From a virus (taxonomy: Duplodnaviria > Caudoviricetes), in IMG/VR virus record IMGVR_UViG_3300028388_004484, positions 414 to 64,413 of that record: a DNA stretch of 64,000 bases. One strand, given 5' to 3'. The notes under the pieces were generated by a model. That model did no database searches. It was not told the origin of the DNA and was given only the letters and a program-made list of their open reading frames with translations. Below are positions 8,627 to 63,664 of the stretch, piece by piece. How positions within the stretch are numbered: position 1 is the first letter of the stretch; every line of letters starts with the position of its first letter. The translations under genes were made by a program, and so were the position numbers.

Positions 8627-9844
8627 ATGAGGAATAAGGCGTTTATACTTCTTTTCTTTACCCTATCTATTTTTTCGGCTTGTAGATCACAGTCGGGGTT
8701 AATTGAAGTTGAATGCCTTCGCGGCGTTGAAATAGCGGGCAACTATTGTTACTTCTGCCCGCCGAACGGGTCGACGGTTTTTGACGGATTAAAAATAGAC
8801 TACGGAAACGGTCGCCTTCTTTATATCCGCAAGCCCTATGTGGCCCGTTTCCGGGACGCTGACAGTTTGACGGTTATCACCTTCGACCGCGAACAAAGGG
8901 CTTCGTTCAGGCTATCACAAACGGTCTACCCGACTATGGATACCTTACGTAGCATTATCGAAGCTTGCGCGGCGGATCCGGTAACGCCGGTCGATACGGT
9001 CGACTGCTGTCCGACGGTCGATACATTTATGGTAGTTGACGGGATCCTTTATTTTAGCCTTTCTTCCGAAGATGTCGTTTATTCCGCAAATATTTGCTGC
9101 GACACTGCCGGCGGCGTCGTTTCCGTTTATCGGCAATACTTCGCAGATGTCACCGGGGATACGCTAACGGTATCCGTTCATGGGGATACTTTACCCGGGA
9201 TAAGTCGGCATATCGCCGTATACGTCGAAGGGATCCGGCAGAAGGAAGGGCCGCCGGGGGCGGGGGACTATCAGTATTCGGATTCTACTATCGTTTTTAA
9301 TTATTCGCTTGCCGGCGAAGATGCATGGATATGGTTTATAGACCGCGCCGAAGGGATAACGACCTACCAGGAGTTTTTTACAGACGTTTCGGCCGATACG
9401 GTTTTAATATCGGGATCCTTCCCGGCGGACACGGCGCAAGTTAATGTTTTCGTCGAAGGGATCCGGCAGATACAAGGGGCGCCCGGATCCGGCGACTACC
9501 GGATTAACGGGAACAGGATCGATTTTAATTATACCCTTTCTTCGGAAGATGTCGAAGTATGGTTTATTGACCAAACGGGACCCCTTTCCATTTTTTCAGA
9601 AACTTTCCTTGATGCTACCGGAACAACGGTAACGGTTACGGCGAACGGCGGAACGATTCCGGCCTTAAATCAGGCGACTTTGGTTTTTGTCGAAGGATTA
9701 AACCAGCAGGAAGGAAGCGCCGGAGACTACGAAACATCCGGAAGTAATTTCAATTTCAAATATACGCTTTCTTCGGAAGATGTATCGACGCATTTCCTTA
9801 TCGGCACTACCGATATGGGGGTGCTTGGCCTTTTTCAAAATTAA
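8627..9844 (+). CDS. exported or lipoprotein repeat protein
   Basis: MRNKAFILLFFTLSIFSAC lipobox-like signal; three repeats of V(Y/F)VEG..Q..G...GDY...F.Y.L..ED; Cys pairs. Confidence 0.65.
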   Translation: MRNKAFILLFFTLSIFSACRSQSGLIEVECLRGVEIAGNYCYFCPPNGSTVFDGLKIDYGNGRLLYIRKPYVARFRDADSLTVITFDREQRASFRLSQTVYPTMDTLRSIIEACAADPVTPVDTVDCCPTVDTFMVVDGILYFSLSSEDVVYSANICCDTAGGVVSVYRQYFADVTGDTLTVSVHGDTLPGISRHIAVYVEGIRQKEGPPGAGDYQYSDSTIVFNYSLAGEDAWIWFIDRAEGITTYQEFFTDVSADTVLISGSFPADTAQVNVFVEGIRQIQGAPGSGDYRINGNRIDFNYTLSSEDVEVWFIDQTGPLSIFSETFLDATGTTVTVTANGGTIPALNQATLVFVEGLNQQEGSAGDYETSGSNFNFKYTLSSEDVSTHFLIGTTDMGVLGLFQN

Positions 9845-12800: not shown

Positions 12801-13201
12801 GCTTTGATGTTTTTCAGTTAAACGGGGTTGACCTTGAAGTATCTCAACGCCTTGACGGCGACGCGACTTATTCCCTTAGTCTTATGCCTCTGGGCGTTGT
12901 TCCGCCGGCAAGTGATGTGAGCAACACGACGACTTTTACGGCTACGGCCGGAGAAATAAATTTGGTCGACGTAACAAGCGGCACCGTTTCCGTGACGCCA
13001 CCTGCCGGGCCGGCGGCCGGCGATCGTTTCGCCGTCGTAGATAGCCGGAATAATGCCGGAACAAACAACATCACAGTCAACTTTTCCGGGTCGACGCAAA
13101 AGCTTTGGGGGACCGTTCAAAACTATGTCCTAAGCACAAACGGGGAATACGCCGAATTTGTGTACATGGGCGCGAATACGGGTTGGATCCTTACTAAATA
13201 G
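9851..13201 (+). CDS. large signal-peptide-bearing tail fibre/adhesin-like protein
   Basis: KRILFLLIMLELFAVVIFA|Q; many DDQTLS/DAQTLS repeats; YNTT...FQYWDGSAW fibre motifs; C-terminal segment resembling T4 gp9/gp10-type modules. Confidence 0.7.
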   Translation: MEQRRNDKVKRILFLLIMLELFAVVIFAQDPRTRPLPKRLSPASASGQFIIADGSLDGQWNSAVIWDGTYLLLNGDTVAVLPLGAIVEIDGDTTNELQILSISGDTLTISDGNSVILPAGGGGTDDQTLSLVGTDLSIESGNTVSLAALQDGTGTDDQTLSISNDTLTIESGNFVVLPGGGTDDQTLSLVTNTLSIESGNSVDLSPYLDNTDAQTLSLGGTVLSITGGNSVDLAPLQDGTGTDDQVLSISNDTLYIEDGNNVVLTPYLDNTDAQALSLVGTDLSITGGNTVDLVSLQDGYLGADIAANTATYDAGGTADFKIIDPDSIYFDIDGAGGVMDYFLMSESGLYWGVGNTASFRSYFSASSTGTTVWTIIGSDMQINMLSSASDFSLTVGGDINFGNSSTDAINIYGRYALANDSPSIISGDTSVMIWRGTGATTISEMILLDDLISSAGTDDQVLSISNDTLSIESGNFVVLPSGAADNWGTQSVISSSWFSGTGIVGDTLDLAQNGATAGQTIKWFDGFGWLPGIDNNTNLTNEQVQDYFAQLLVGNTETGITVTYDDAGDLLNFEVTGGGATGGGIYGGDGNLGAVGFQDYLSVGIDSSQVLSFEIDASPTFWGGGLRIYTDYNNDDAISTAFKIATPSDSLWFEHFNQGTKMVYQTPTSQYTDFSIEVKPSTLAASGGLDLNGGLNVDSVGLVNFWNRTTTQRDLLPASIIDEGDLFYNTTLSAFQYWDGSAWVTFPGGGTGGIYSGDGSLIEVTSVTVPANDYLEFLVTPGPTNHGKAIHIDLGSQTDDMTSIPFSITSNSNDSLYFEFKDVQTPTIAYQAGGGNAFGLAIDALGGPSAVATRGSGWLELNGSRVDTLGLFKPLSATTATRNTWGVSNVWQPTSGYMFYNTDSLKYQYYDGSSWQTFPGSGGGTSGVQSVSGSGAISVGGTAADPVVSWNAGNIVINEAIDFDDYILWYGALSRRATVDTLLGFDVFQLNGVDLEVSQRLDGDATYSLSLMPLGVVPPASDVSNTTTFTATAGEINLVDVTSGTVSVTPPAGPAAGDRFAVVDSRNNAGTNNITVNFSGSTQKLWGTVQNYVLSTNGEYAEFVYMGANTGWILTK

Positions 13202-13228
13202 ATTTTTCAAATATTAAATTTTCATACT

Positions 13229-13582
13229 ATGAGTAGTAAAGTAGGAATTGAGCAAACGAAGGAAATGCGGGACTTCCTTATCGACCTTGCGAACCTTTTG
13301 GATAAGGAACTGGCCGACGGTTTCCAATGGCAGCAGGACCTCATTTCGACCGCATCGCTTTGGCGGTCCGGATATGCTGCCTTTGAAGGGGCGAAGGAAA
13401 TTCCCGCCGAATTTCTGGACATGGACGACCAGGAGCGCGCCGAATACATTTCCGGTTTTTCGCGCCTGGACATTCGCGACGATAAGGCTGAACAACTTGC
13501 CGAAGTCATTATGGAAGAATCCGCAAACATCTTCTTTTCGATCAAAAGAGTGGCGGACGCTATAAAGCAGGCAAAAGGATAA
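13229..13582 (+). CDS. hypothetical protein
   Basis: ORF followed by a UUCG hairpin. Confidence 0.6.
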   Translation: MSSKVGIEQTKEMRDFLIDLANLLDKELADGFQWQQDLISTASLWRSGYAAFEGAKEIPAEFLDMDDQERAEYISGFSRLDIRDDKAEQLAEVIMEESANIFFSIKRVADAIKQAKG

Positions 13583-13633
13583 CGGCAGGGCGCTTCGGCG
13601 CCCTTCCTATTTGGCAGCAAAAAGCAAGTTCCC

Positions 13634-14557
13634 ATGAACACCCGAATGACGCTGCCCGGAAGCTTTAAAAAGCACGGAGACTTTTTAAGGACCCTTTCTG
13701 AAAAAGATATTATCCGGATCCGGGAAGCAAAGGAACAAAGGAAAGGGATTTTTCGTCTTTTAATATTTTCAGACGCCCACGGCCTTTTAGTCGACCCAAA
13801 GGCCAGAGATTGTTTATTTGCCGTTATTCAAGAAAACGACTTCGACGAAATTGTCGACAACGGGGATACCCTTGACTTCCCTTATCTTTCCAACCATTCG
13901 AAAAAAATTAACCGGGTAAATGACGAAACGGATTTACTTCGTAATTACGACGAAATAAAGGAAATCGAATTTACCCGGCGGACCTTTTTCGAACCCCTTC
14001 GGGAAATATCATCGGCGAAGATCGTAAAACGGGACGGCAACCACGACGAAAGGATAACAAAGCCGAAGAAGTATTCTAAAGAACAACTGGAAAGGCTAAA
14101 TTCGATTTTCATCGCTTACGATTCTTCGAACTTAGGGCGGATCCTTCGACTTCCCGAATTAGGGGTCGAATACGACCCGGCGCCAATACGCAAATACTTC
14201 GATATGTTTTTTCTTGTTCACGGCCTTTCGGTTTCAAAGTATTCGGCCTATAAGAACCTGGAACAATATCACCGAAGCGGAAGCAGCGGCCATACTCACC
14301 GCCTAAATTCAACTTACGTTGAAAAGTGGGGGAAAACTATGTGCTGGATCGAAAGCGGATGCCTTCGATTAACGGAATCCGTGGAATATTTCCCTACGGC
14401 GGTAGTTGCAAATTGGCAGCAGGGTTTTGTTACGGTAACTTTCGACCTTCGGGAAGATCCGGAAAAGCCTACCTTTTACGCAAAAACGCACCCGATAATT
14501 AACGGAAGCACGGAGTATAATGGGAAGGTTTATTCTTATAGGGACTTCCGGAAATAA
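13634..14557 (+). CDS. calcineurin-like metallophosphoesterase
   Basis: DAH, GDTLD, GNHDE, HG and GHTH motifs. Confidence 0.85.
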   Translation: MNTRMTLPGSFKKHGDFLRTLSEKDIIRIREAKEQRKGIFRLLIFSDAHGLLVDPKARDCLFAVIQENDFDEIVDNGDTLDFPYLSNHSKKINRVNDETDLLRNYDEIKEIEFTRRTFFEPLREISSAKIVKRDGNHDERITKPKKYSKEQLERLNSIFIAYDSSNLGRILRLPELGVEYDPAPIRKYFDMFFLVHGLSVSKYSAYKNLEQYHRSGSSGHTHRLNSTYVEKWGKTMCWIESGCLRLTESVEYFPTAVVANWQQGFVTVTFDLREDPEKPTFYAKTHPIINGSTEYNGKVYSYRDFRK

Positions 14558-14582
14558 AAACGGCCCGGGAATCCCCCGGGCC
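14552..14582 (-). terminator. intrinsic terminator of the repressor transcript
   Basis: GGCCCGGG/CCCGGGCC stem; the A-run at 14552-14560 is the U tail on the minus strand. Confidence 0.75.
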
Positions 14583-14611
14583 ACTAAAAGCAAGTTAAAA
14601 TGAACATTATA
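14552..14611 (-). ncRNA. candidate antisense RNA in the repressor 3' UTR
   Basis: minus strand reads GUUCAUUUUAACUUGCUUUUAG directly before the terminator; complementary to lytic gene leaders. Confidence 0.5.
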
Positions 14612-14947
14612 TTAATGGTCATTTTCTTTTAATTGTTTTTTTAGACGGCGGATTTCTTCCCGAAGTCTTTTATTTTCCGCTTCCGGGTCATTAACATCTT
14701 TTAACAGCATCGGAACGTATGGCGTATCAAAGAATTCCGGATTAATTCCCAGCGCTTCCAACTTCGCTAAACGGGTTCTTATTAACCTGGAAAAGGCTGG
14801 GGCGGTTTCCGTGGCCCATGTGGAAACTCTGCTTTGGGTACGGTCTAAAAATTTTGCTATATCTGCCTGTGTTAACCCTTTTTTGTCTTTAAGGTGCATT
14901 AGGACAAGGTTTAATCGAAAGCCGGCTTCTTTGGTTTGATCTTTCAT
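14612..14947 (-). CDS. XRE-family HTH repressor (CI-like)
   Basis: GLTQADIAKFLDRTQSRVSTW HTH plus C-terminal coiled coil; the only convincing minus-strand gene; divergent from the replication operon. Confidence 0.8.
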   Translation of the reverse strand: MKDQTKEAGFRLNLVLMHLKDKKGLTQADIAKFLDRTQSRVSTWATETAPAFSRLIRTRLAKLEALGINPEFFDTPYVPMLLKDVNDPEAENKRLREEIRRLKKQLKENDH

Positions 14948-14995
14948 AGATTGCTACTTTCTATTCGTTTTATATGGAAACCATTGTAAAATGAG

Positions 14996-15023
14996 TATCT
15001 TTGTGGAATTAATAGCAAAGATA
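14996..15023. promoter_or_regulatory. pair of oppositely oriented Bacteroidota -7 boxes (genetic switch)
   Basis: TATCTTTG at 14996-15003 (+) and CAAAGATA at 15016-15023 (TATCTTTG on minus). Confidence 0.6.
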
Positions 15024-15056
15024 AGTTTTTTATAATAAAACATATAACTTAAGAAG

Positions 15057-15320
15057 ATGAAGCGGATTTATATCCTTTTTTTCGATAGCGGTTTTTCAAT
15101 GCACACCAGTAAGAAAAAAGCCCTTCGGGCCGTCGAAGAACGGCTGGAAAACCCACGGGTAAATGGTTTCAAGTTTAACTACCAGCGTCTTTGCGAAGCC
15201 CTTCCAAAAGCAAATCCCATCGGGAAGGTAACTATTAAAGGCGAAGATGATCGAAGCGCTTCGATCGTAATGGCGCCCTTGAATTACGATGTTTTAGTAA
15301 CTATTCCCGGCGAAGAATAA
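15057..15320 (+). CDS. hypothetical protein (first lytic-side gene)
   Basis: ORF divergent from the repressor. Confidence 0.6.
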   Translation: MKRIYILFFDSGFSMHTSKKKALRAVEERLENPRVNGFKFNYQRLCEALPKANPIGKVTIKGEDDRSASIVMAPLNYDVLVTIPGEE

Positions 15321-15340
15321 CGCATCTAAAAAGATATTAT

Positions 15341-15382
15341 ATCCGATTTATTTGATTTTTCGGATTTTTGGCACTAACTTAG
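15341..15382 (+). promoter_or_regulatory. class B promoter/operator ATCCG-N-TTTATTTGA-N5-CGGAT
   Basis: repeated at 18643, 27187, 30646, 30764 and 34508. Confidence 0.6.
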
Positions 15383-15404
15383 CGGTCCATTAAAAGCAAG
15401 AAAT

Positions 15405-16538
15405 ATGAAATGGACCGCTTCACTGCCGCTCGCGGCGATTTCCGTAAACTTTCCTTCCCTTACCGTAAAGGATGCCGTCGTTCTGGATTGGTTTACTTCA
15501 TTTGTCCATACCGGACGAATGGAATACAAAGATTCCGGCGGCCGTCTTTTTTATTGGGTGTCCTACGAAGAAATCATTACAGAAATTCCGATGCTTCGCT
15601 GGACAACTACGGATCCGGTTTACCGGGCTTTTCGCCGCATGGTTAAGGCCGGAATTTTTGATGCCCATCCGGACAATGCTAAGGAGAACAAAGCCTTTTA
15701 TGCTTTCGGGCCTGGATACGAAAAAATCAGGGCTTTCGATCCTATCGAATTTTTTAACGCTTTCGGCCGGAAAGGGACCCCCGGTCAAAATCAGGAAGAA
15801 CGCGAAGGGACCCCCGGTCAAAATAACGGCCGACCCCCGGTTAAAAAACCGGGTAATAATAATATAAGTAATATTAGTACAAATATAGTCCAAAACGATT
15901 TTGGACATCAATCTTTTGACCTTCCCGGAATCGAAGAAGAAAAAGAAGAAGGCGGCCCGGATCTTTTCGAAGGGGTCGATATATCCTTCGAAAGCTTTTG
16001 GAACGCCTACGGACGAAAGGAATCGAAGAAAAGGGCGAAAAGATCATGGAAGAACCTTCCTAAATATAAAAAAAAGTTGGCGATCGAAAAAGTCGCGCCT
16101 TACGACGAATTCCTTAAAGCGAATCCGTGGCGGGACAAGATGCTTCCTACGACCTGGATTTCCGGGGAACGTTGGAACGATGACTTTTCGACAAAAGCTT
16201 CCGGTTCTATTTCCGTTGAAGATTTAATCGACGTAGAAGCCGATGCGGCCCTTGTAAGGAGCTTTAAGGCCTTCCGGGGTATAGTCGCCGATAAGGCACC
16301 GGAAGTACTTTCCTGCGCCGGGCAATTAACGCTCAGTCAATATATCGAAGTCGCTACCGGTCGCGCCTTCCCGGGATATAAAAAGAAAATGACTACGGCG
16401 GGCTTAAAGTCGAAGATCCTTTCCGCGGTCGAAGCCATGGGAACTATCGACGCATATAAGGTCCGGCGCCCGGACTTTAAGATGATCGACTACCTAAAAG
16501 ACTACATTCTTTTTTCTGGAAAAAAGATTTACAAGTAA
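15405..16538 (+). CDS. replication initiator protein
   Basis: N-terminal wHTH-like region, central iteron-encoded linker, FESFWNAYGRKESKKRA...PTTWISGERWND domain typical of phage initiators. Confidence 0.8.
   Translation: MKWTASLPLAAISVNFPSLTVKDAVVLDWFTSFVHTGRMEYKDSGGRLFYWVSYEEIITEIPMLRWTTTDPVYRAFRRMVKAGIFDAHPDNAKENKAFYAFGPGYEKIRAFDPIEFFNAFGRKGTPGQNQEEREGTPGQNNGRPPVKKPGNNNISNISTNIVQNDFGHQSFDLPGIEEEKEEGGPDLFEGVDISFESFWNAYGRKESKKRAKRSWKNLPKYKKKLAIEKVAPYDEFLKANPWRDKMLPTTWISGERWNDDFSTKASGSISVEDLIDVEADAALVRSFKAFRGIVADKAPEVLSCAGQLTLSQYIEVATGRAFPGYKKKMTTAGLKSKILSAVEAMGTIDAYKVRRPDFKMIDYLKDYILFSGKKIYK
15774..15900 (+). repeat. replication origin: three iterons GACCCCCGGTYAAAA plus AT-rich element
   Basis: iterons at 15774, 15807 and 15832 followed by ATAAGTAATATTAGTACAAATATAG inside the initiator gene (lambda O-like layout). 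Confidence 0.75.
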
Positions 16539-16555
16539 TTCAAAAGCAAGTTGAA

Positions 16556-18634
16556 ATGACAGACTTTAAAAAATTCGCATTACGCTATTTTGATTCCGGC
16601 CACCGGGTTATTCCTATGAAATTTTCCCCTTCGGGTGATAAGGTGCCTATGGCGGCCTGGGGCAAATACCGGGAACGGCAAAGCCGGGAAGATGTCATCC
16701 GCGAATTCTCAAAAAACGGGATCGACGGCATAATGATAATTACCGGGGTTAATGGCCTTGAAGTAATAGACGTAGACCAAAAGTATGCTTTGCATCCGGG
16801 TCTTATGCTTAAGATGTTAGCGCACAATTCCGCTTTCGGTGGGATCGACGTTCAGCGTCTGGTCACGCAGACGACGAAAAACGGCGGATGGCATATTATC
16901 TACCGGACCGCGGCGCCGGGTCCTAATCAGGAACTTGCGCGCCGGCCGGCGACGTATAATGAACTCGCTAAGGAGAACGAAAAAGTTCGCGCCTTTAATG
17001 AAAGACTAAAGGCGGAACAATTTATGGGCAGGCGGACGCAGGAAAGCCTACAAAACGAGTTCAAAAGCCCGGCGGACCTTCCGAAGGTATTAATTGAAAC
17101 TCGCGGCCGTGGTGGATTGCTGGTCGTTCATCCTACACCTGGTTACGAAATAGATTCCGGCGACCTTTGCGATATTCCGAATATCGGCGAAGCGGACCGA
17201 ACCGCGCTTTTCCAGGCGGCCCGTGCCTTAAATCAGCAGGTTTCTAAAAGGGAACTTTCCATAATTGATACGGAAATAAACCGGAACTTCAAGCCGATGC
17301 CGGGTACGGAAGAAGGAACGCCGTGGAACGATTACAACATTAACGGCGATTGGAAGGATCTTTTAGAACGAAACGGATGGACCTTCAACCACAAGCGGAA
17401 GGATTCATCTACCGGCAATGATTATTACTACTTTACGCGACCCGGGAAGAAAACAGGGGTAAGTCTAGGATGGAACGACACCCGGAAGTTTTTTTGGGTG
17501 CATACTTCTTCGACCTTCCTTGAAAAGGACCGCGGGTATACCCTTACGGCGATGCGTGCGGCCCTTGAATTTCACGGCAATTACCGGGAAGCGTGCCGGG
17601 CGCTTAGAAAGGAAGGCTTCGGTAGCGATGACTACGTAAAGGTAACGGCCCAAACGAAAACAGATGTATTAGAATTGGGCCGCTGGCGGATAACGGACCC
17701 CCGGCCGGAAAACGTTTGGTTGTTGAAGATAATGGACCGCGGCGAATGGAAGCCGATAGGCGGCGAAGGGCAAATTATGGTTATCGACGGATACGAAAAG
17801 TCCGGCAAAAGTACTTTCGTCGGCGCCGTTTCCGGTTCTTCTTCAAACCCTGGGAAAGAAGTTTTGGGACTTAAAGCGACGGAAGCAATGCGCGGCCGGG
17901 CTGTTATAGACATAGATACGGAAATGGATGACCCTTCTTACGATTCTTCGCGGCGGATCCGGATGCACACGGCCGGTTTCACTAAGGAGATGCCCGAAAA
18001 TTACTATTCTTACAATCTTAGGGAAATGTTGACCGCGGCGGAACGGTGGGAACGTATTATGCAAATTGTCGAAGCCGTGCCGAACCCCGGCGTTCTTATT
18101 TTAGATGGCGGGATGGACCTTGTAAACAACCAAAACGACTTGGAAGAAAATCAACTTGTTTCGCGGCGGATCATGAAGATAGCTTCTAAATATAAGATGC
18201 TAGTGGTAGTTATTATCCATTTTTCGAAGTCGGGAACCGGCTTCGGCCACCTTGCCGGCTTCCTTAACCGGAAGCTGAATGTTCAGTTTACGATTTCAAA
18301 AGATGACGACAGGGAAGTAATGACGGTAACGAATCCGCGGATACGTGGTCAGCGTTATTTAGAAGCCTTTGATATTAAATGGTGCGACGGAAGGCCGCAG
18401 CGGGTCGATCATTTAATCAAAGAAGAAGAAGATTTTTGGACCGCTTCCGGCGTCGTCGATCCGGATAAGAACGGAAACGGCGCCCAGGAAGCCACACAGG
18501 GCGAATGGAAGCAGTTTTCCGTGGTCCCTTCCCTTCCCATTAACGGGAACGGAAAAGCGCATCACAACGGAAATAGCGTTCAGATTTCCAGGGACCGGGC
18601 GCCCGGATCCGACGAAATGATCGAATTCGATTAA
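16556..18634 (+). CDS. bifunctional primase-polymerase / P-loop helicase
   Basis: VIDVD, TTKNGGWHIIY, IETRGRGG..VVHPT prim-pol motifs; GYEKSGKS Walker A; DIDTEM; LILDG. Confidence 0.85.
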   Translation: MTDFKKFALRYFDSGHRVIPMKFSPSGDKVPMAAWGKYRERQSREDVIREFSKNGIDGIMIITGVNGLEVIDVDQKYALHPGLMLKMLAHNSAFGGIDVQRLVTQTTKNGGWHIIYRTAAPGPNQELARRPATYNELAKENEKVRAFNERLKAEQFMGRRTQESLQNEFKSPADLPKVLIETRGRGGLLVVHPTPGYEIDSGDLCDIPNIGEADRTALFQAARALNQQVSKRELSIIDTEINRNFKPMPGTEEGTPWNDYNINGDWKDLLERNGWTFNHKRKDSSTGNDYYYFTRPGKKTGVSLGWNDTRKFFWVHTSSTFLEKDRGYTLTAMRAALEFHGNYREACRALRKEGFGSDDYVKVTAQTKTDVLELGRWRITDPRPENVWLLKIMDRGEWKPIGGEGQIMVIDGYEKSGKSTFVGAVSGSSSNPGKEVLGLKATEAMRGRAVIDIDTEMDDPSYDSSRRIRMHTAGFTKEMPENYYSYNLREMLTAAERWERIMQIVEAVPNPGVLILDGGMDLVNNQNDLEENQLVSRRIMKIASKYKMLVVVIIHFSKSGTGFGHLAGFLNRKLNVQFTISKDDDREVMTVTNPRIRGQRYLEAFDIKWCDGRPQRVDHLIKEEEDFWTASGVVDPDKNGNGAQEATQGEWKQFSVVPSLPINGNGKAHHNGNSVQISRDRAPGSDEMIEFD

Positions 18635-19120: not shown

Positions 19121-19128
19121 AGTAAAGA

Positions 19129-26648: not shown

Positions 26649-26718
26649 ATGTCAAAAAGCTTTGACGGTCCAAGCTAAAGCATTAACTTAGCATCATTGA
26701 AAACAAAAACAAGTTAAA

Positions 26719-26922
26719 ATGAATTACTTTGAAGATCCCTTAAGAATCATTAGAATCAAAATTGGTGAACTTGAAATGGCCCTTCGCTACGAATACGGCT
26801 TCGACCCGGAACCTGTAAAGGAAGAAATCCGGATCCTAAAGGCGGAACTTCGCGAAAAGGAAGCGGCCCTGGAATACGAAGAAGAAATCCGCCGCATGGA
26901 CACGGACTATCCGCTGGACTAA
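26719..26922 (+). CDS. hypothetical early protein
   Basis: class A promoter, leader motif, UUCG terminator. Confidence 0.65.
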   Translation: MNYFEDPLRIIRIKIGELEMALRYEYGFDPEPVKEEIRILKAELREKEAALEYEEEIRRMDTDYPLD

Positions 26923-29359: not shown

Positions 29360-29982
29360 TATTTATACTTGACGCCGGCCACGGGGGAATAGATCCTTTC
29401 GGCCGCTATACTACAAAAGGGAAAAGTTTTACACACGCGGAAGGGACCTTCCACCGCGGTAAAACTTTTTACGAAGGCGTTTTTAATCGAAGGCTAACGG
29501 ATATAGTCTTTGATTCCTTGAAAGAATTTAATATACCTGTTGTAAAAGTTTACCATGATTATCTGGATTTAGATCTTTCCTTACGGGTATACCGGGCGAA
29601 CGGCTTTTACAATAAGTTTGGCGATGGCGTTTTAATAAGTAATCATGCAAATGCAAGTCATGCACATACGGCCCGGGGATTTGAAGTTTTTTCAGGTCCT
29701 GGATTCTCGCAATCTGATAAGATAGCGGATGAATACTTCCGCAATGTAAAGGATTTTTTAGGCGATTGCATTCAATACCGGCCGGGCGGATCCACGGCAG
29801 GGAAGGAAGCGAATTTTTTCCTTCTCCGAAACTTTGACGGCCCGGCTATCCTGGCCGAACATCTTTTCTTCGATAACTACGACGATGCCATTCTTTTAAT
29901 GGATCCTATTATTATCGAAAAGTTCGCACAAGCACAGGTACAAACCATTTTAGATATTTATTATGACCGTAGAAGAATTTAG
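29356..29982 (+). CDS. N-acetylmuramoyl-L-alanine amidase (Amidase_3 endolysin)
   Basis: LDAGHGG, YEGVFNR, SNHANA, ILAEHLF. Confidence 0.9.
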   Translation: MIFILDAGHGGIDPFGRYTTKGKSFTHAEGTFHRGKTFYEGVFNRRLTDIVFDSLKEFNIPVVKVYHDYLDLDLSLRVYRANGFYNKFGDGVLISNHANASHAHTARGFEVFSGPGFSQSDKIADEYFRNVKDFLGDCIQYRPGGSTAGKEANFFLLRNFDGPAILAEHLFFDNYDDAILLMDPIIIEKFAQAQVQTILDIYYDRRRI

Positions 29983-30643
29983 AAATTTGCAACGGAAGGC
30001 GGACCCCTTCGCCCCCTTATTTCCTGACCTTTCGGAAACCGCCGGTAAGGTCATTATTGGATTCGACCCCCACGCTTCCACGCCGGGCGTTGCCGCCTAC
30101 GATGCCAGGGAGGGAAAGGTACACGCCTTCGAAACGATAAAAAAGGCGGACATGAAAGAATGGTTAGAAAAGACGTTATCCGTGCCGGGTTTTTACGAAA
30201 GGGCCTTCGCCCGGGTAGAAATGCCGACCCGACAAACGACCTACGGCCACATTCAGCGTATGACGAAAGCCGCCGGCCGGAATCGCTTTTCTTCGAAGTT
30301 CGAAAAGCAAGTGTTTGGGATAATATGGAATTCGTCGAAGGGCGAAACGATCGCCGAAGATTTTATTGAGATCCTAAAGTCTTGCGCGGTCCCTTTCGAA
30401 GTTGTCCGAAGTGACGACCGTATTAATTGCGAAACGCTAAGATACGCTAAGGGGAAAAGCGGTCCGGCCCTTGAAACTTATTTTTCAACTCGCGCGCTGA
30501 AAACCGGCTTCCGGATCTTTCCTTCGAAGATGAAAGCAGAAACGGCCCGTCATTTTTACGGAACCCGGAAGCCTGGAAATAAAGAAAGTCGTGACGCCCT
30601 ACTTTTATCCTTCCCGGAAGTGATTTATAAAAAATTCGGGTAA
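29963..30643 (+). CDS. RuvC-like resolvase/nuclease
   Basis: IIGFDP...GVAAY, VEMP, ESRDALLL. Confidence 0.6.
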   Translation: MTVEEFRNLQRKADPFAPLFPDLSETAGKVIIGFDPHASTPGVAAYDAREGKVHAFETIKKADMKEWLEKTLSVPGFYERAFARVEMPTRQTTYGHIQRMTKAAGRNRFSSKFEKQVFGIIWNSSKGETIAEDFIEILKSCAVPFEVVRSDDRINCETLRYAKGKSGPALETYFSTRALKTGFRIFPSKMKAETARHFYGTRKPGNKESRDALLLSFPEVIYKKFG

Positions 30644-30689
30644 TTATGCGGATTATTTGATATTTCAATTAATAAAACGTACATTTGCC

Positions 30690-30744
30690 ATGTTCCATTT
30701 CACTTGCTTCCCGGGTAGGATTTAATCCTTCCCGGTTTTTTTTT
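30690..30744 (+). ncRNA. candidate stand-alone sRNA of about 55 nt
   Basis: class B promoter (TACATTTG 30680-30687), seed CATTTCACTTGCTT, terminator CCGGG..CCCGG plus T9; no ORF. Confidence 0.5.
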
Positions 30745-42054: not shown

Positions 42055-42083
42055 TTATTATTAATATCTAAAAGCGAGTTAAG

Positions 42084-42395
42084 ATGAAAAAGCAAGTAAT
42101 TAATAAAGCAAATTGGTCGGGCGAATCCGCCGAAATTCAATTTTCAGAACCTACCGTTGAAAACCCCGGCCGACTGGTAATTCCAGACCTTGACCTTGAC
42201 CTTATTCTTAAGGTAGAAAGCCTTTTGGAAAATAACGACTGGATTAAGGCCTACGACGGCGACGAATTAATCGCGCACGCATTCGAAGTCGACCCCGGGG
42301 AATGGATTGCAAGTACTTCTTCCTTAAAAGACTTTCACCGTGTGGGTAAAAACCCCTACGTTGTCATTTCGGAAATCCTTTTCAACATCATCTAA
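42084..42395 (+). CDS. hypothetical early protein
   Basis: leader motif; weakly similar to the next ORF. Confidence 0.65.
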   Translation: MKKQVINKANWSGESAEIQFSEPTVENPGRLVIPDLDLDLILKVESLLENNDWIKAYDGDELIAHAFEVDPGEWIASTSSLKDFHRVGKNPYVVISEILFNII

Positions 42396-43039: not shown

Positions 43040-43187
43040 GACCAAAAGAAAAAGCCTGTCGGATCCTTCCCGGCAGGTTTTTTTTAATCTTTTTGTCAAA
43101 AAGCTTTGACGTATCAAAAAATAGCATTACTTTTGAATCATCGAAGGAAACAAAAAAAATCATTATTAACCTTTAAAGCAAGTTGAA

Positions 43188-43655
43188 ATGAAAGGAGTAA
43201 ACACCGCAGGAACTAAGAAGCTTTACAAACTTTACGCCGCAGCTGTTAAAAACGGTGGTTTCCTGGAAATTGATAATAACGGCCCGGATTCCGGTTTTAT
43301 GCCGGTAACGGTCCGGATCCTTCCGAAGGAAGGCCGGTTTTACCGTTTTTCGGTCGCGCATAATTACGTCCAAAACGGGGACGTAATGAACGACCCCGAA
43401 ATGACTTTCGTTTTTCCCGACTTTACGGAAAAATACGCCGAATCCGAAGATTGGGGATTTGTTTGGATCGGTCCGGCTACCTTCCGCCAGGATAATATGG
43501 GGCTTTACGGATCCTTCCTTTTCTTAGATGAAAAAGGCGAAGGGGTCAAAAGTTATCGGCCCCGTATGTACGAAGATAACCGGGTTTTTGCTGGTCAGTG
43601 GATGTCGAATATCTGGAATCAGCAAAGTTTAAGCCGGGCGAAGAACCGAATTTAA
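43188..43655 (+). CDS. DUF6908/DUF1249-like protein
   Basis: SVAHNYVQNGDVMNDPEMTF motif. Confidence 0.6.
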   Translation: MKGVNTAGTKKLYKLYAAAVKNGGFLEIDNNGPDSGFMPVTVRILPKEGRFYRFSVAHNYVQNGDVMNDPEMTFVFPDFTEKYAESEDWGFVWIGPATFRQDNMGLYGSFLFLDEKGEGVKSYRPRMYEDNRVFAGQWMSNIWNQQSLSRAKNRI

Positions 43656-44311: not shown

Positions 44312-44453
44312 AATTAATGGGATCTAATATCCGCACGAAAAAAATCATTTTTTTGAAAATATTTGTCAAAATATTTGGACAAACAAAAGGAAAGCATTAA
44401 CTTAGTATCATCAAAGAAACAAAAGAGATTTTTTAAACAAAAAGCGAGTTAAG

Positions 44454-44756
44454 ATGAAAATTTCAGCACATTTCCAACAGGTTTACCGGTCCGAAATCGA
44501 AAAGCCAGAATTCGAAAAGGCGGTTTTTTACGCCATGGGTTGGATCGAATCTAAAATGGAAGCCCGCGAATTCCAGGACCATTTTTCAGGCCTTGAAGGA
44601 CCGGCTTATAAAGAAGCGGCGTATACCTTCTTCGCGGAAGGGATCCAAACCCTTACTTCCCTTATTATGGCTATCGAAATGAACTTTCCGCATCAGACGG
44701 AAGCATTCGAAGAAGCGGCCGCCCTGGTCGCTATCGAAACGCTTTTCGGAGTATAA
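44454..44756 (+). CDS. hypothetical early protein
   Basis: promoter-leader-ORF-terminator unit. Confidence 0.65.
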   Translation: MKISAHFQQVYRSEIEKPEFEKAVFYAMGWIESKMEAREFQDHFSGLEGPAYKEAAYTFFAEGIQTLTSLIMAIEMNFPHQTEAFEEAAALVAIETLFGV

Positions 44757-44787: not shown

Positions 44788-44895
44788 CGACCTTTTTTAA
44801 AAATAGTTGTCAAAAAATTTGGACAATTAAGAGAAAAGCACTAATTTAGTATCATCAAAGAAACAAAGGATATTTTCAACTAAAAGCGAGTTAAA

Positions 44896-45468
44896 ATGAA
44901 AGTTACAAAGTCAGTCTTATTAAGTCGCAAACAAGTTACCGAAATCCCCGGCCGGCCGGAATTAAAAATCGGCGCTGAATTCATTTCTACGCATAGCGAC
45001 GGGAAAGTTATCCGCGAAAAAGTCTATTCGCTGATTAAGAAGGTTTGGATTGATTCTAACCTTTATTACGATTGGGAAAATACCGAATACATGGTCGTTT
45101 GTGAATCCGCCTGCGTTTACTACCCTTCCGAAATCGAACCCGAAGAAGTTTTCCCCGAACTTAGCATTAGCCCCGGCGAAGTAAAAGCCCTGGGCCGGAT
45201 CCTTTCCGAAGAACTTTTGGAAGTCGACGAATACTTTTCCCGCGAATTATCCCTTGACGGATCCGGGGACTGCTTCGCGGAAGTAGAAGCTGCGCAGGCC
45301 CGGACGGAAGCGAGGGTTATTAAAATCATGCTTGACCGCTTCGGCGTCGCCGGCGAACGGAAAGCCCTTTTCCATACCTTCGGCCTTTACTATGATCTTC
45401 ATTATAGCTTAGGAAAGGTTTCTTATAAGCCCTGGGAAGTAGCTTTTACCTTCCTTTGGGAAGAATAA
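44896..45468 (+). CDS. hypothetical early protein
   Basis: class A promoter at 44808, leader motif. Confidence 0.65.
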   Translation: MKVTKSVLLSRKQVTEIPGRPELKIGAEFISTHSDGKVIREKVYSLIKKVWIDSNLYYDWENTEYMVVCESACVYYPSEIEPEEVFPELSISPGEVKALGRILSEELLEVDEYFSRELSLDGSGDCFAEVEAAQARTEARVIKIMLDRFGVAGERKALFHTFGLYYDLHYSLGKVSYKPWEVAFTFLWEE

Positions 45469-46041: not shown

Positions 46042-46269
46042 ATGTTTTACTGTCTATATCATGCCGAAGAACTGCCCGAAGAAGGGATCGAACGCGACCG
46101 ATGGATGATAAAGGCCCGGCCACGCGGCCCTTTTGTGAAAAAAGAAAATGCGGAAGATGCCGGGCGGCGGCGGGCGGCGCGGCGCGGTGGTTCATACGTC
46201 GTATATGAATGTTCCGACCTGATAAGAGCCTGGCGCATTGCTAGGAAAAAAATCTATCCTTCTAATTAA
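46042..46269 (+). CDS. hypothetical protein
   Basis: ORF ending at the antisense seed and terminator. Confidence 0.5.
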   Translation: MFYCLYHAEELPEEGIERDRWMIKARPRGPFVKKENAEDAGRRRAARRGGSYVVYECSDLIRAWRIARKKIYPSN

Positions 46270-46280
46270 CTCGCTTTTCG

Positions 46281-46310
46281 GCCCGCATGAAAAATGCGGG
46301 CTTTTTTTTT
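46281..46310 (+). terminator. intrinsic terminator preceded by an antisense leader copy
   Basis: GCCCGCAT/ATGCGGGC plus T9. Confidence 0.8.
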
Positions 46311-46420
46311 GATCTTTCCAAAAAATAACTGTCCAAATATTTTGACAATTAAGGGAAAAGCACTAATTTAGTATCATCAAAGGAACAAAAGAGATTTTAA
46401 AACCTTAAAAGCAAGTTGAG

Positions 46421-46780
46421 ATGATAATTATTTCTCATTCCTTATTCCGAAGCGAAACGGCCGATAATCGGCCTTACGCTACCCTTTCCACTACTGTTAC
46501 CCTTCCGAATAATACCGGATACGAAATTACGGAAACGATTATCGGATCCGGATCCGGATCCCTTCGGGTTCGTTTCCTTCGCGGTGGGCAACTGAATTCC
46601 GCTTCCCGGGCCTACCGGGGTGTAGGTTATATCGGGACCCCTTTTGCTTCCTGGAAAGCGATCCGGGAAAAGTATTCCGGCCTTCGGAAAGGTGGGATCA
46701 TGGAAGAAGTCCGGGAAGCGCACGGCGATCAAAAAAGCCGGATCCTTTCCGAAATCGTCCAGCCGGGACCGTCGAAATAA
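46421..46780 (+). CDS. hypothetical early protein
   Basis: class A promoter at 46330, leader motif. Confidence 0.6.
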   Translation: MIIISHSLFRSETADNRPYATLSTTVTLPNNTGYEITETIIGSGSGSLRVRFLRGGQLNSASRAYRGVGYIGTPFASWKAIREKYSGLRKGGIMEEVREAHGDQKSRILSEIVQPGPSK

Positions 46781-47028: not shown

Positions 47029-47048
47029 AACCTTAAAAGCGAGTTAAG

Positions 47049-47558
47049 ATGAACAATTATGAAGTAAAAGACGGACTTACCCCGTCGGAACGGTGGTCCT
47101 ATTTAAAGCAGCGTTATCACGCCTTACAGGATGAATATCCAGAATTAGGGGCCTTCCCTATCGAAAAAGGAAAAACGCGGCGGGCCATTGGACAATGTAA
47201 GTTTAAAAGCCGGCATTCCGGCGCTATTTTCATTTCCTGGCCGTTTATCCAGGTTAACGACCTGGAAAAAATGTGGAAAATCATCGCGCATGAAGCTGCG
47301 CACGCCCTGGCGTCAATACATGATAACGCCCGCGACCATGATCGGAAATTCAAGCGATGGGCGCGCCGGCTTAACGCGCCGGAAGGTCACGCGGTGGACT
47401 TCGTTAATGCGCCGGAATTAAAGTACACTGTATCATGCGTCGCCTGCGGATACGAAGTTGGATATTCCCGCAAACCGAAATATGAAATGTCATGTGCGAA
47501 ATGTTCCCCGGGGCGCTTCGACCCTTCAAAAGTCATGAAAATAAAAGTTAATTGGTGA
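47049..47558 (+). CDS. SprT-like zinc metalloprotease
   Basis: RRAIGQC, HEAAH, H.R.F..W, C-terminal CxxC pairs. Confidence 0.85.
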   Translation: MNNYEVKDGLTPSERWSYLKQRYHALQDEYPELGAFPIEKGKTRRAIGQCKFKSRHSGAIFISWPFIQVNDLEKMWKIIAHEAAHALASIHDNARDHDRKFKRWARRLNAPEGHAVDFVNAPELKYTVSCVACGYEVGYSRKPKYEMSCAKCSPGRFDPSKVMKIKVNW

Positions 47559-50217: not shown

Positions 50218-50340
50218 AACGGACATTTCCCGGGCGGCCTTTTGTCTTTTCGGTAATATTTGCTATATTTGATAAGCAGAATTTTTCAAATTGGTTAGTT
50301 TTCGCAGGGGCTTCGGCCCTTGCTTTTAAAGCAAGTTGAA

Positions 50341-50565
50341 ATGAACAAAAACACACCAACTCCTTACCTTTTATTCCGGGCTAAGGAAATCGCCGAAGCG
50401 CTTCCGGCGCCGGAAGATCCCAAAAAATGCAAAGTTAAGTCTATTCATCCCCGCCTTCCTGGTCAGGTTCTTAAGCACGCTTCTGGCGCCTACGTTATAG
50501 GGTTCGGTGGCGGAATTGACTTAAAAGTTAACGGCCAGGACTTCCAGGCTATAAAAATAAGGTGA
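50341..50565 (+). CDS. hypothetical protein (start probably 50341)
   Basis: leader AAAGCAAGTTGAAATG. Confidence 0.55.
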   Translation: MNKNTPTPYLLFRAKEIAEALPAPEDPKKCKVKSIHPRLPGQVLKHASGAYVIGFGGGIDLKVNGQDFQAIKIR

Positions 50566-51241: not shown

Positions 51242-51488
51242 GACCTTAACTTAACCGGATCCATGTGCTAATTTTTGCTATTCTTTTACTCTGCGCGGCC
51301 TTTTTCCTTCGGAAGAAATGGAATCCGCCGGCGGACCTGGAAACCGGCTATTTAGGACCATTAGCCGTAGGAAAGGAAGTAAAAAGCCGGATCCGGGAAA
51401 GATCGGAGCAAAAATAAATTGTCAAAAAAGCTTGACTTTTTGAGATGCTTTATTTAGCTTTACATCATCAACTAAATAACGAGTTAAA

Positions 51489-51980
51489 ATGAAGGACTAC
51501 AAAGTATTTATTCCTTTTCCGATTGTTGCGGTATCTTACGGATATTCGGAAAGTCGAATCGAAAGTATAATACCTTCGGGTGTTTACTCCGTAATTGAAG
51601 ATACGGGATCTTATGAAAAAAACCCGTCGCAAGTATTAATACAATTTGCCGGCGCTGAATTTTGGCTTTACCTTTCCAGGCATACGCCGTGGGATCATTT
51701 CCCCGTCGAAGGCGTATTTCCCGTTTATCAGGATTTTGACTTTTCTTTTCTTTATATGGATGTTTCGAATGAAGAAATGACCGAAAATTTACAAGCCTTG
51801 CGGCCGGCTTCCGCTTCCGTCGAAGAATATGTTTTTGGTGACGCCGACATTTGGGAAGAATGGGAAGGCTTCGGATCGATCCGGGCCGCATGGCTTTCCG
51901 CGGTCATGTACGATAGGTCTTATTATTTTGTTACCCGAAAAAGAATGGACCATATTTTTACAATGGCCCTGGGCGATTGA
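51489..51980 (+). CDS. hypothetical early protein
   Basis: class A promoter at 51420. Confidence 0.6.
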   Translation: MKDYKVFIPFPIVAVSYGYSESRIESIIPSGVYSVIEDTGSYEKNPSQVLIQFAGAEFWLYLSRHTPWDHFPVEGVFPVYQDFDFSFLYMDVSNEEMTENLQALRPASASVEEYVFGDADIWEEWEGFGSIRAAWLSAVMYDRSYYFVTRKRMDHIFTMALGD

Positions 51981-63455: not shown

Positions 63456-63664
63456 CTTGTGTAGGTTTTTCTCATATAGGTTTGACCCCGGGTGTGTGCC
63501 GCCTGGGGTTTTTTTTTGAAAAAAATGTCAAAAAAGCTTGACTAACAAAAGAAGGTTCACTACCTTTACATCGTCTTAAGGAATTAAAAGATTTTCAAAC
63601 TAAAAGCGAGTTAAAGCGGAATAAATTAAATGGGCTTCGGCCCCTAACCTTAAAAAAAAATATT

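What the first reader, a model, noticed from the sequence alone, without database searches (positions are those of the whole stretch)
14552..14611. Repressor 3' UTR is antisense to a leader shared by many lytic genes: candidate genome-wide RNA silencing regulon
Seen: AAAAGCRAGTTRARATG, complete or 5'-truncated, ends at the start codons 16556 (prim-pol), 26719, 42084, 43188, 44454, 44896, 46421, 47049, 50341 and 51489. Partial versions precede 13634, 15405 (rep), 24380 (int), 31045, 33300 and 41626. The all-A version CTAAAAGCAAGTTAAAATGAAC is at 14584-14605, where the plus strand gives only a 10-codon ORF. On the minus strand it lies between the repressor stop and the repressor terminator, reading GUUCAUUUUAACUUGCUUUUAG. 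Within the matched block, targets differ from it only by A-to-G (44880-44900 matches 20 of 21; 42068, 46406 and 47034 have two A-to-G each), which keeps pairing as G:U. Known: G:U-tolerant variation and a seed next to a terminator are hallmarks of base-pairing sRNAs. Inference: one transcript supplies both a protein repressor and an RNA that blocks translation starts of early and replication genes.
Basis: partly seen in the sequence, partly recalled or inferred. Interest (0 to 1): 0.9.

Follow-up and report, generated by a model that had tools for sequence, protein, structure and literature searches.

The report
Phage gene-start tag with mirror RNAs
A temperate phage of Bacteroidota puts the same short tag in front of a dozen early genes and also encodes RNA ends that mirror that tag, one of them behind its repressor gene, so it probably switches these genes off together by RNA pairing, though no transcript has been seen.

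Summary
AAAAGCRAGTTRARATG occurs 14 times at up to 2 mismatches against 0.21 expected. All 10 listed sites end at an ATG, and the copy at 14586-14602 lies between the stop (14612-14614) and the terminator (14562-14582) of the only clear minus-strand gene, an HTH protein.

The window holds three units built as [mirror of the tag][1-3 nt][GC hairpin][U-run]:
- (a) the repressor 3'UTR
- (b) a promoter-driven ~55-nt RNA at 30690-30744
- (c) the 3'UTR at 46265-46310

Unit (b) follows a RuvC-like gene. In two distant relatives the orthologous gene is followed by a similar unit that mirrors that phage's own, different tag. This covariation makes anti-leader RNAs likely real here (about 0.8).

For (a) itself there is no comparative support. 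Its seed is partly buried, costing 6-9.5 kcal/mol to open, and it could be an ordinary or vestigial plus-strand leader copy. I put (a) acting as a silencer at about 0.45.

Earlier notes of this scan describe similar anti-leader RNAs in other Bacteroidota phages. I did not check those notes. Four literature searches found no such regulon in print.

The parts
14584..14605 (-). Unit (a) seed. The mirror of the leader plus start codon (GUUCAUUUUAACUUGCUUUUAG), in the 3'UTR of the HTH gene. On the + strand it is a full leader copy with an ATG.
   Evidence: It has the best mean duplex energy (-23.09 kcal/mol) of 42,928 windows tested against 10 leaders. 18 of 94 start regions pair at -12 kcal/mol or better, against a mean of 2.25 for shuffled seeds.
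14553..14582 (-). Intrinsic terminator of the minus-strand transcript: hairpin 14562-14582 followed by GUUUUUAUUU.
   Evidence: There is no U-run on the + strand side.
14612..14947 (-). HTH protein of 111 aa with a coiled-coil tail, the presumed lysogeny repressor. It is the only clear minus-strand gene of the early region.
   Evidence: The family hits are weak, so the role is inferred from position.
14596..14628 (.). Imperfect palindrome AAAATGAaCATTAtatTAATGgTCATTTT across the repressor stop codon. On either strand it pairs with the AUG/CAU part of the copy.
   Evidence: Opening the seed costs 6.1-9.5 kcal/mol in the full mRNA and 0.5 if the RNA begins after the stop. The + strand start costs 8.9, the highest of the 11 leader copies tested.
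14600..14632 (+). 10-codon ORF behind the leader copy, probably a by-product.
16542..16558 (+). Leader, subtype 1 (GCAAGTTGAA), of the prim-pol/helicase gene. No promoter of its own.
26705..26721 (+). Leader variant (AAAAACAAGTTAAA) of a 67-aa gene, behind a class A promoter.
42070..42086 (+). Leader, subtype 2 (GCGAGTTAAG), of an internal gene.
43174..43190 (+). Leader, subtype 1, of the DUF6908 gene.
44440..44456 (+). Leader, subtype 2.
44882..44898 (+). Leader, subtype 2, at the 5' end of the operon that ends with unit (c).
46407..46423 (+). Leader, subtype 1.
47035..47051 (+). Leader, subtype 2, of the SprT-like gene. No promoter of its own.
50327..50343 (+). Leader, subtype 1, directly after a terminator whose 3' arm plus U-run (CTTGCTTTT) mirrors it.
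51475..51491 (+). Leader variant (AATAACGAGTTAAA).
63602..63615 (+). Full leader behind a class A promoter but without an ATG. The real start is 50 nt further on, at 63665.
30656..30744 (+). Unit (b), a stand-alone small-RNA gene. It has -33 TTTG (30656-30659), a 20-nt gap, -7 TACATTTG (30680-30687), the seed CCAUUUCACUUGCUU (30695-30709), hairpin 30711-30735 and a U9 run.
   Evidence: (opening 0.14 kcal/mol). Syntenic covarying units occur in G002 and G004.
29963..30643 (+). RuvC-like gene (226 aa), the synteny anchor of unit (b).
46265..46310 (+). Unit (c). ATTAACTCGCTTTT is a 13-nt exact mirror of subtype 2. It overlaps the stop of ORF 46042-46269 and is followed by hairpin 46281-46301 and a U9 run.
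   Evidence: (the only strong minus-orientation copy, 17.9 bits).

Best explanation
The window is almost the whole 64.4-kb genome of a temperate Bacteroidota phage.

The last 14 nt of the 5'UTR of about 10-13 early, accessory and replication genes is one fixed tag, AAAAGCRAGUURAR, ending at the AUG.

The phage also encodes RNAs whose single-stranded stretch just before an intrinsic terminator mirrors that tag. I expect them to pair with it, cover the start codon region and block, or mark for decay, translation of the whole gene set.

There are three such units. Unit (b) is a small RNA gene with its own promoter and matches tag subtype 1. Unit (c) is the 3' end of an early operon and matches subtype 2. 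Unit (a), the finding, is the 3'UTR of the HTH repressor gene. It carries U opposite all three variable purines and can therefore pair with both subtypes.

In a lysogen the repressor transcript, or a fragment cut from its 3' end, would add a translational lock on leaky early messages, and perhaps on those of superinfecting kin.

Shown here: the tag, its placement, the three units, their predicted pairing, and covariation of unit (b) with the tag in two relatives.

Inferred: that these RNAs are made, that they pair in the cell, the direction of the effect, and above all that unit (a) takes part.
For: 1. The tag is far beyond chance: 14 matches against 0.21 expected. A position-weight scan gives 13 + strand copies at 16.8 bits or more, then a gap down to 12.5.

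2. It is an RNA element. It closes the roughly 40-nt leaders of promoters with -33 TTTG and -7 TAnnTTTG boxes, and it also precedes promoter-less internal genes such as 16556, 42084, 47049 and 33300. The promoter consensus is taken from passages of PMC7366714.

3. Three units share the architecture [mirror][1-3 nt][hairpin][U-run] but have unrelated hairpins.

4. In a local-alignment scan, the five best hits that are not opposite a gene start of 40 or more codons are (a) 38, the opposite strand of the ATG-less leader at 63602 (30), (c) 26, the opposite strand of a leader-like stretch at 31979 inside a + strand ORF (24), and (b) 23. The best two on the + strand are (c) and (b). By duplex energy, (b) and (c) rank 2nd and 5th among distinct + strand loci of 21,464 windows.

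5. Specificity within the genome: the best targets of (b) are subtype 1 genes, those of (c) are subtype 2 genes, and (a) reaches both.

6. Covariation at an orthologous locus. The RuvC-like gene before (b) has orthologues of 30-33% identity in G002 and G004. Each is followed by a terminator-capped unit that mirrors that phage's own leader. In G002 the unit reads CAUGUCUGUGUGGUU against the leader AACCACACAGACAUG. In G004 it reads UGGUUUGUAGUGUUGUUAUUAU against UAAUAACAACCACAAACCA.

7. Swap matrix. Median duplex energy of a unit with its own phage's leaders is -13.4 to -24.2 kcal/mol, and with other phages' leaders -3.0 to -13.6.

8. In G002 the three best + strand non-self hits all abut terminators.

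9. Phages that have the RuvC-like gene but no repeated leader (G003, L163/L242) have no such unit.

10. For (a) in particular: it has the best mean pairing of all 42,928 windows. Its + strand start site is the least accessible of the 11 leader copies tested (8.9 against 2.0-6.6 kcal/mol), so it is a poor translation start.
Against: - For unit (a) there is no comparative support. No close relative exists in the collections searched.
- The local-alignment scans of G002 and G004 show no minus-strand mirror apart from the opposite strands of leaders or gene starts. I did not look for a repressor gene in either.
- G003, which has a 34%-identical HTH homologue, has no repeated leader. I did not examine that homologue's 3'UTR.
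- In the full repressor mRNA the seed is largely paired with the end of the coding region, costing 6.1-9.5 kcal/mol to open.
- I saw no -7 consensus for an internal promoter on the minus strand of 14606-14760 (my reading), so a free small RNA would need processing.
- On the + strand, (a) is indistinguishable from the other leader copies, ATG included. An ATG-less leader at 63602 shows that copies not placed at a gene start exist.
- The all-A state is shared with 26705 at the three variable sites. The A-to-G pattern rests on three positions.
- G001, which is 62% complete, is inconclusive. Its 11-nt mirror before a terminator scores 22 and is not a top hit.
- The terminator-flank test with exact matches is modest. 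Same-genome matches of 11 nt or more are 2 of 67, 2 of 27 and 3 of 77 terminators, and 3 of those 7 are merely the opposite strand of a leader copy. The six cross-genome controls give 0.
- Gene calls, terminators and promoters come from my own simple scripts and reading.
Confidence: 0.45

Rival explanations
1. Anti-leader RNAs are real in this phage (units b and c), but the copy at 14586 is only an ordinary or vestigial + strand leader with a leftover ATG. It happens to lie inside the repressor's transcription unit, and its antisense relation to the other leaders has no function.
For: - The copy has the same strand, sequence and ATG placement as the other 12 strong copies.
- An ATG-less leader copy exists at 63602.
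- With 13 copies and about 95 gene junctions, one landing here is not rare (my rough estimate is about 1 in 7).
- The seed is partly buried in the repressor mRNA.
- Neither G002 nor G004 shows a mirror behind a minus-strand gene.
Against: - The hairpin next to it carries its U-run on the minus side only, so the copy sits inside the repressor's 3'UTR and not behind a + strand terminator.
- The spacing (3 nt to the hairpin, with no U-run between) is that of units (b) and (c), not of true 'terminator then next gene' junctions such as 13634 and 26984.
- As a + strand start it is the least accessible copy and opens only 10 codons.
Confidence: 0.35
2. There is no RNA-RNA regulation. The tag is a translation-initiation enhancer for Shine-Dalgarno-less Bacteroidota ribosomes, or the site of a phage RNA-binding protein in the manner of T4 RegA. 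It would have spread by duplication of promoter-leader cassettes, and the mirror copies would be relics of inverted cassettes.
For: - Whole promoter-plus-leader modules are repeated.
- Related phages have their own repeated modules, and some are C/A-rich like known enhancers (the abstract of PMC3879156 was seen in the listing).
- The tag has A at -11 to -14 and a purine at -3, partly fitting the adenine pattern reported for Bacteroidetes (passage of PMC7366714).
- Inverted cassettes exist in G002.
Against: - Relics do not explain why the mirrors sit 0-6 nt before terminators in three phages, why their hairpins are unrelated, or why the unit after the orthologous RuvC-like gene tracks three different leaders.
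- This phage has almost no minus-strand genes that could leave such relics.
- An enhancer role and an antisense target role are not exclusive.
Confidence: 0.12
3. The copy at 14586 and the palindrome over the repressor stop codon serve convergent transcription control. Late + strand read-through past hairpin 14562-14582 would load ribosomes on the mini-ORF and carry antisense transcription into the repressor gene during lytic growth.
For: - There is no U-run after the hairpin on the + strand, so read-through from the upstream operon is plausible.
- A leader plus ATG is present.
- The palindrome gives a structured RNA on both strands (z = -3.18 on the minus strand).
Against: - The + strand start is the least accessible of all copies.
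- Nothing in the relatives bears on this.
- It does not explain units (b) and (c).
Confidence: 0.08

Closest known systems
c4 antisense RNA of phages P1/P7 (immI), CI RNA of P4, and sar RNA of P22
   Same: A phage-encoded RNA that pairs with the ribosome-binding region of phage messages and contributes to immunity or lysogeny. This description comes from passages of the review PMC12197685.
   Different: Those RNAs act on one operon (ant/icd, or P4's own leader). Here about 10-13 separate genes share one tag. There is no Rfam match. The hosts are proteobacteria with Shine-Dalgarno sites. Here there are three mirrors with different specificity, one of them in a repressor 3'UTR.
3'UTR-derived base-pairing sRNAs (CpxQ, SroC, DapZ and MicL in enterobacteria, recalled; 21 UTR-derived candidates in Bacteroides thetaiotaomicron, PMC7366714 passages)
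   Same: The regulator shares the terminator of a protein-coding mRNA, with the seed just upstream, giving a dual-function transcript.
   Different: No processing site or internal promoter can be shown here. The parental gene is a phage repressor, and the targets are the phage's own genes. Bacteroides lacks obvious Hfq and ProQ homologues (same paper, passage).
GcvB silencing of C/A-rich (ACA) translation enhancers (PMC3879156, abstract as listed)
   Same: One RNA targets a short element that lies next to the start sites of many mRNAs and may itself promote translation.
   Different: GcvB is a host sRNA with degenerate targets. Here the target is a near-identical 14-nt tag fixed at the AUG and specific to each phage.
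T4 RegA translational repressor and RegB nuclease (recalled, not looked up)
   Same: Coordinated post-transcriptional shut-off of many early phage messages through their initiation regions.
   Different: Those effectors are proteins. No homologue was looked for systematically here, since only about 25 of about 95 proteins were scanned.
Anti-leader RNA candidates noted earlier by this scan in other Bacteroidota and crAss-like phages (AI notes that I did not check)
   Same: A terminator-capped RNA whose exposed stretch mirrors a motif at the start codons of a set of phage genes. In some notes it is said to covary in relatives.
   Different: No sequence likeness to this window. None of the notes shown places the mirror in a repressor 3'UTR or reports several mirrors with split specificity.

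Membership tests
   An Rfam 15 scan of the whole window at gathering thresholds found only tRNA-Glu.
   Predicted duplexes of -17 to -28 kcal/mol with 13 start regions. There is no experimental data.
3'UTR-derived base-pairing sRNA | Shares the intrinsic terminator of the parental mRNA | tested here: met
   The seed 14584-14605 lies between stop 14612-14614 and hairpin 14562-14582 plus its U-run. This is predicted from sequence only.
3'UTR-derived base-pairing sRNA | Own 5' end by processing or by an internal promoter | not testable with these tools
   I saw no TAnnTTTG box on the minus strand of 14606-14760 (reading). Processing needs RNA data.
3'UTR-derived base-pairing sRNA | Accessible seed | tested here: inconclusive
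   Opening costs 6.1-9.5 kcal/mol in RNAs that include the coding end, and 0.5 if the RNA starts after the stop.
Syntenic anti-leader sRNA of this phage group (defined here) | Lies directly after the RuvC-like gene | tested here: not met
   This is met by unit (b) at 30690-30744, G002 7270-7340 and G004 about 15811-15880. Unit (a) lies elsewhere.
Syntenic anti-leader sRNA of this phage group (defined here) | The single-stranded stretch mirrors the phage's own leader and abuts a terminator | tested here: met
   Units (a), (b) and (c) and the units of G002 and G004 all show this. The swap matrix gives the specificity.
Syntenic anti-leader sRNA of this phage group (defined here) | Own Bacteroidota-type promoter (-33 TTTG, about 20 nt, -7 TAnnTTTG) | tested here: not met
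   Present for (b) and for G002 7213-7244. Absent for (a), and not evident for G004.
RegA-like protein operator | The phage encodes a RegA-type RNA-binding repressor | not tested
   Only about 25 of about 95 ORF products were scanned against Pfam or PHROGs. None of them was such a protein.

The most novel reading that the evidence does not exclude
The repressor mRNA has two functions. Its protein shuts early promoters, and its 3'UTR is a 'universal' anti-leader, with U opposite every variable purine, that silences the start sites of at least 10 early and replication messages. This would be an RNA layer of lysogenic immunity that could also act on superinfecting kin. Together with two lytic-phase mirrors of split specificity (unit b for tag subtype 1, unit c for subtype 2), it would form a phage-wide, address-based translational programme. 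That programme would co-evolve as a unit in a family of Bacteroidota phages, whose hosts lack Shine-Dalgarno-led initiation and obvious Hfq and ProQ homologues.
Probability: 0.35. Interest if true: 0.85.

Novelty: new variant of a known kind. Interest (0 to 1): 0.7.

Why it matters
Antisense control of single phage genes has been known since P1, P22 and lambda. A phage that tags a whole class of its genes with one fixed address at the start codon, and carries matching RNAs that change with the address in related phages, would be a compact post-transcriptional regulon.

The hosts are Bacteroidota, where mRNAs lack Shine-Dalgarno sites and the usual RNA chaperones have no obvious homologues. Little is known there about how translation is controlled.

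If the mirror in the repressor's 3'UTR works, lysogenic immunity in this phage has an RNA arm.

The system is also easy to test. The seeds and tags are short, the predictions are sharp (compensatory mutations), and the subtype split gives built-in specificity controls.

Tried and rejected
- **Close relatives.** Protein-pattern scans of IMG/VR with the repressor and with prim-pol found none. An exact-motif scan of IMG/VR gave 68 single hits. In the seven loci I inspected they lay in ordinary sequence, apparently by chance. A word-based protein search with prim-pol found only the window's own protein. The best TerL relative is 58% identical.
- **Public sequencing runs.** None was listed for 12000-21900 and no RNA holder was listed.
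- **Known RNA families.** Rfam gave nothing but tRNA-Glu.
- **The tag as a promoter.** Rejected, because promoter-less genes carry it.
- **The tag pairing with 16S rRNA.** Not tested, because no host genome is known. I think it unlikely, since related phages use quite different tags.
- **Duplex-energy ranking in G001.** Dominated by G/U-rich coding sequence and uninformative.
- **Short-motif phages L075, L082, L133, L141 and L179.** Mirror hits were all opposite strands of real gene starts or ambiguous.
- **Widening the RuvC-like set.** A 20-sequence alignment was too diverse for pattern search. A 6-sequence one gave 3 loci.
- **Earlier notes of this scan.** Searches by sequence or by relatives found no look-alike window.
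- **Literature.** Four searches (titles and abstract starts only) turned up no anti-leader regulon in Bacteroidota phages. I read passages of PMC12197685 and PMC7366714 only. That review's supplementary table of 38 uncharacterised phage sRNAs was not seen and might bear on novelty.
Full report
**What the window is.** The window is bases 414-64413 of a single 64,413-bp record with a 97-bp terminal direct repeat, so it is a complete phage genome. Nearly all genes are on the + strand. Leaders are A-rich and lack Shine-Dalgarno sites. The integrase (24335-25597) has the Arm-DNA-bind_5 and SAM_5 domains. TerL relatives lie in Bacteroidota genomes and phages and are at most 58% identical. The host is therefore a member of Bacteroidota, but I could not name it.

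The gene at 14612-14947 on the minus strand encodes a 111-aa HTH protein with a coiled-coil tail. It sits divergent from an 87-aa gene and the replication module of rep (15405), prim-pol (16556) and SSB. 'Repressor' is a reasonable reading, but it is inferred from position.

**The observation.** It holds.
- AAAAGCRAGTTRARATG has 14 matches at up to 2 mismatches against 0.21 expected.
- A weight matrix built from ten sites gives 13 + strand copies at 16.8 bits or more, then a gap to 12.5. There is exactly one strong copy in the opposite orientation, at 46265-46278.
- All ten listed sites end at an ATG, and the six partial sites carry the core.
- The copy at 14586 lies between the repressor's stop and a hairpin whose U-run is on the minus-strand side only.
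- 'Only A-to-G' is true for 6 of 10 sites. 13 of 18 differences are A-to-G, and they fall on three positions.

**What the tag is.** Many tagged genes share a whole module:
- a palindrome GTCAAA(N4-6)TTGAC over the -33 region (9 matches against 0.22 expected)
- a -7 box (TAAYTTAG or TACTTTTG)
- a leader of about 40 nt whose last 14 nt is the tag

These boxes fit the Bacteroides consensus of -33 TTTG and -7 TAnnTTTG, quoted in passages of PMC7366714. The tag also precedes genes with no promoter of their own: prim-pol, 42084, 47049, and 33300 right after tRNA-Glu. So it works at the RNA level, at the start site. It comes in two main subtypes:
- GCAAGTTGAR at 16556, 43188, 46421 and 50341
- GCGAGTTAAR at 42084, 44454, 44896, 47049 and 63602

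Virion genes do not carry it.

**Mirror copies.** Three units share one architecture, [mirror of the tag][1-3 nt][GC hairpin][U-run]:
- Unit (a): minus strand, 14605 to 14553.
- Unit (b): + strand, 30690-30744. It lies behind -33 TTTG (30656), a 20-nt gap and -7 TACATTTG (30680), with no ORF beyond 11 codons.
- Unit (c): + strand, 46265-46310. It overlaps the stop of ORF 46042-46269 and closes the operon that begins with the subtype 2 leader at 44882.

Supporting detail:
- The three hairpins are unrelated in sequence, so the units are not recent copies of each other.
- In a local-alignment scan, the five best hits that are not opposite a gene start of 40 or more codons are (a) 38, the opposite strand of the ATG-less leader at 63602 (30), (c) 26, the opposite strand of a leader-like stretch at 31979 (24), and (b) 23. 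The best two on the + strand are (c) and (b).
- By mean duplex energy, (a) is the best of 42,928 windows. Units (b) and (c) rank 2nd and 5th among distinct + strand loci.
- With about 12 + strand terminators, roughly 0.5% of the strand lies within 25 nt upstream of one. Two of the top five falling there is unlikely by chance. This is my rough estimate, not a formal test.
- Unit (b) pairs best with subtype 1 starts (50341, 15405, 16556, 46421, 43188). Unit (c) pairs best with subtype 2 starts (44454, 42084, 47049, 44896). Unit (a) pairs with both.
- Seeds (b) and (c) are free, costing 0.14 and 0.5-2.0 kcal/mol to open. Seed (a) costs 6.1-9.5 in any RNA that includes the end of the coding region, because an imperfect palindrome (14596-14628) spans the stop codon. 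It costs 0.5 if the RNA begins after the stop.

**Relatives.** No close relative exists in the collections I could reach. Using a TerL alignment I fetched distant ones. Several have their own repeated promoter-leader modules with quite different tags:
- G001: CACAGTCAAAACC...
- G002: CGTTAACAACAAAACCACACAG...
- L075, L082, L133, L141, and an Adhaeribacter prophage, L179

Phage-specific start-site tags are therefore a trait of this group.

**The key result.**
- The gene just before unit (b) is a RuvC-like protein (29963-30643). It has orthologues of 30-33% identity in G002 (6460-7188), G004 (a 65-kb IMG/VR record) and G003.
- In G002 the orthologue is followed by TTTG, a 20-nt gap, TACCTTTG, a first hairpin, the stretch CAUGUCUGUGUGGUU and a terminator. 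That stretch is the exact mirror of G002's own AACCACACAGACAUG.
- In G004 it is followed by UGGUUUGUAGUGUUGUUAUUAU and a terminator, mirroring G004's UAAUAACAACCACAAACCA in two blocks. This is the best + strand hit in 65 kb that is not opposite a gene start.
- G003, and L163/L242, have the gene but no repeated leader, and have no such unit.
- In a swap matrix each unit pairs with its own phage's leaders at a median of -13.4 to -24.2 kcal/mol, and with other phages' leaders at -3.0 to -13.6.
- G002 has two more mirrors in 3'UTRs, at 9235 and 37351. Its three best + strand non-self hits all abut terminators.
- G001, which is 62% complete, is inconclusive.

**Reading.** Seed and tag change together at an orthologous locus in three phages. 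I take that as good evidence (about 0.8) that anti-leader RNAs act on these tags.

Unit (a) has the same build as the supported units. It sits inside the repressor's transcription unit and not behind a + strand terminator. It is a poor + strand start. It is the best all-round partner of the tags.

Against this, (a) has no comparative support, its seed is partly buried, and it has no promoter of its own. It is also identical in form to ordinary leader copies, one of which (63602) demonstrably lacks an ATG and so is not placed at a gene start. The G:U argument is weak, since it rests on three sites.

I put (a) acting as a silencer at about 0.45. The main rival, at 0.35, is that the system is real and (a) is incidental.

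**Comparison with what is known.**
- The mechanism resembles c4 of P1/P7, CI of P4 and sar of P22 (passages of PMC12197685), and 3'UTR-derived sRNAs. It is not a member of the C4 family.
- It differs in that one address is shared by many separate genes, there are several mirrors of split specificity, and one possible mirror lies in a repressor 3'UTR.
- Earlier notes of this scan describe similar anti-leader RNAs in other Bacteroidota and crAss-like phages. I did not check them, and they share no sequence with this window.
- Four literature searches (listings only) showed no published case.

**Limits.**
- No expression data could be had.
- Gene calls, terminators and promoters are my own simple predictions.
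- The statistics on terminator flanks are rough.
- Supplements were closed.

Noticed in passing
window 15007-15036: Two -7-type boxes face each other, TATCTTTG (N12) CAAAGATA, between the HTH gene and the 87-aa gene at 15057. Read as promoters, they would fire in opposite directions from overlapping start points. This is a candidate lysis-lysogeny switch.
   Followed up: no
window 26651-26666, 41546-41561, 43095-43110, 47920-47935, 51421-51436, 63527-63542: The palindrome GTCAAA(N4-6)TTGAC lies over the -33 region of the class A promoters (9 matches against 0.22 expected). It is a likely operator of an unidentified regulator.
   Followed up: partly
window 63527-63667: A class A promoter and a full leader tag (63602-63615) are followed not by an ATG but by a 5-codon ORF wrapped in a hairpin. 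The real start is at 63665. This tagged leader is not placed at a gene start and might act as a decoy or sponge.
   Followed up: partly
window 50305-50343: The terminator before gene 50341 ends in CCCTTGCTTTT, which mirrors the tag that follows it directly (the palindrome CTTGCTTTTAAAGCAAG). The end of the upstream RNA could therefore pair with the next leader.
   Followed up: no
window 30650-30690, 30760-30826, 15340-15404: A second promoter class with a shared upstream element TTATTTGATATTTC(G)GATTTTT drives rep (15405), gene 30827 and small-RNA unit (b).
   Followed up: no
L075, L082, L133, L141, L179 (e.g. L082 840, 3353, 4708, 18610): Other TerL-related Bacteroidota phages, and an Adhaeribacter prophage, each have their own short fixed motif touching the ATG of several genes, for example CAAACACTATG in L082.
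   Followed up: partly
G002 (L152) 9235-9300 and (L153) 37351-37420 in record coordinates: Two further mirrors of the 5' half of G002's leader, each 16 nt with one bulge, lie in 3'UTRs a few bases before terminators.
   Followed up: partly
window 33208-33302: tRNA-Glu (UUC) is followed within 6 nt by a leader tag and the ATG of gene 33300, so the tRNA and the mRNA may be cut from one transcript.
   Followed up: no
window 29963-30643: The RuvC-like protein belongs to a small family. Only 42 representatives reach E of 0.001 or better among 1.84 billion cluster representatives.
   Followed up: partly
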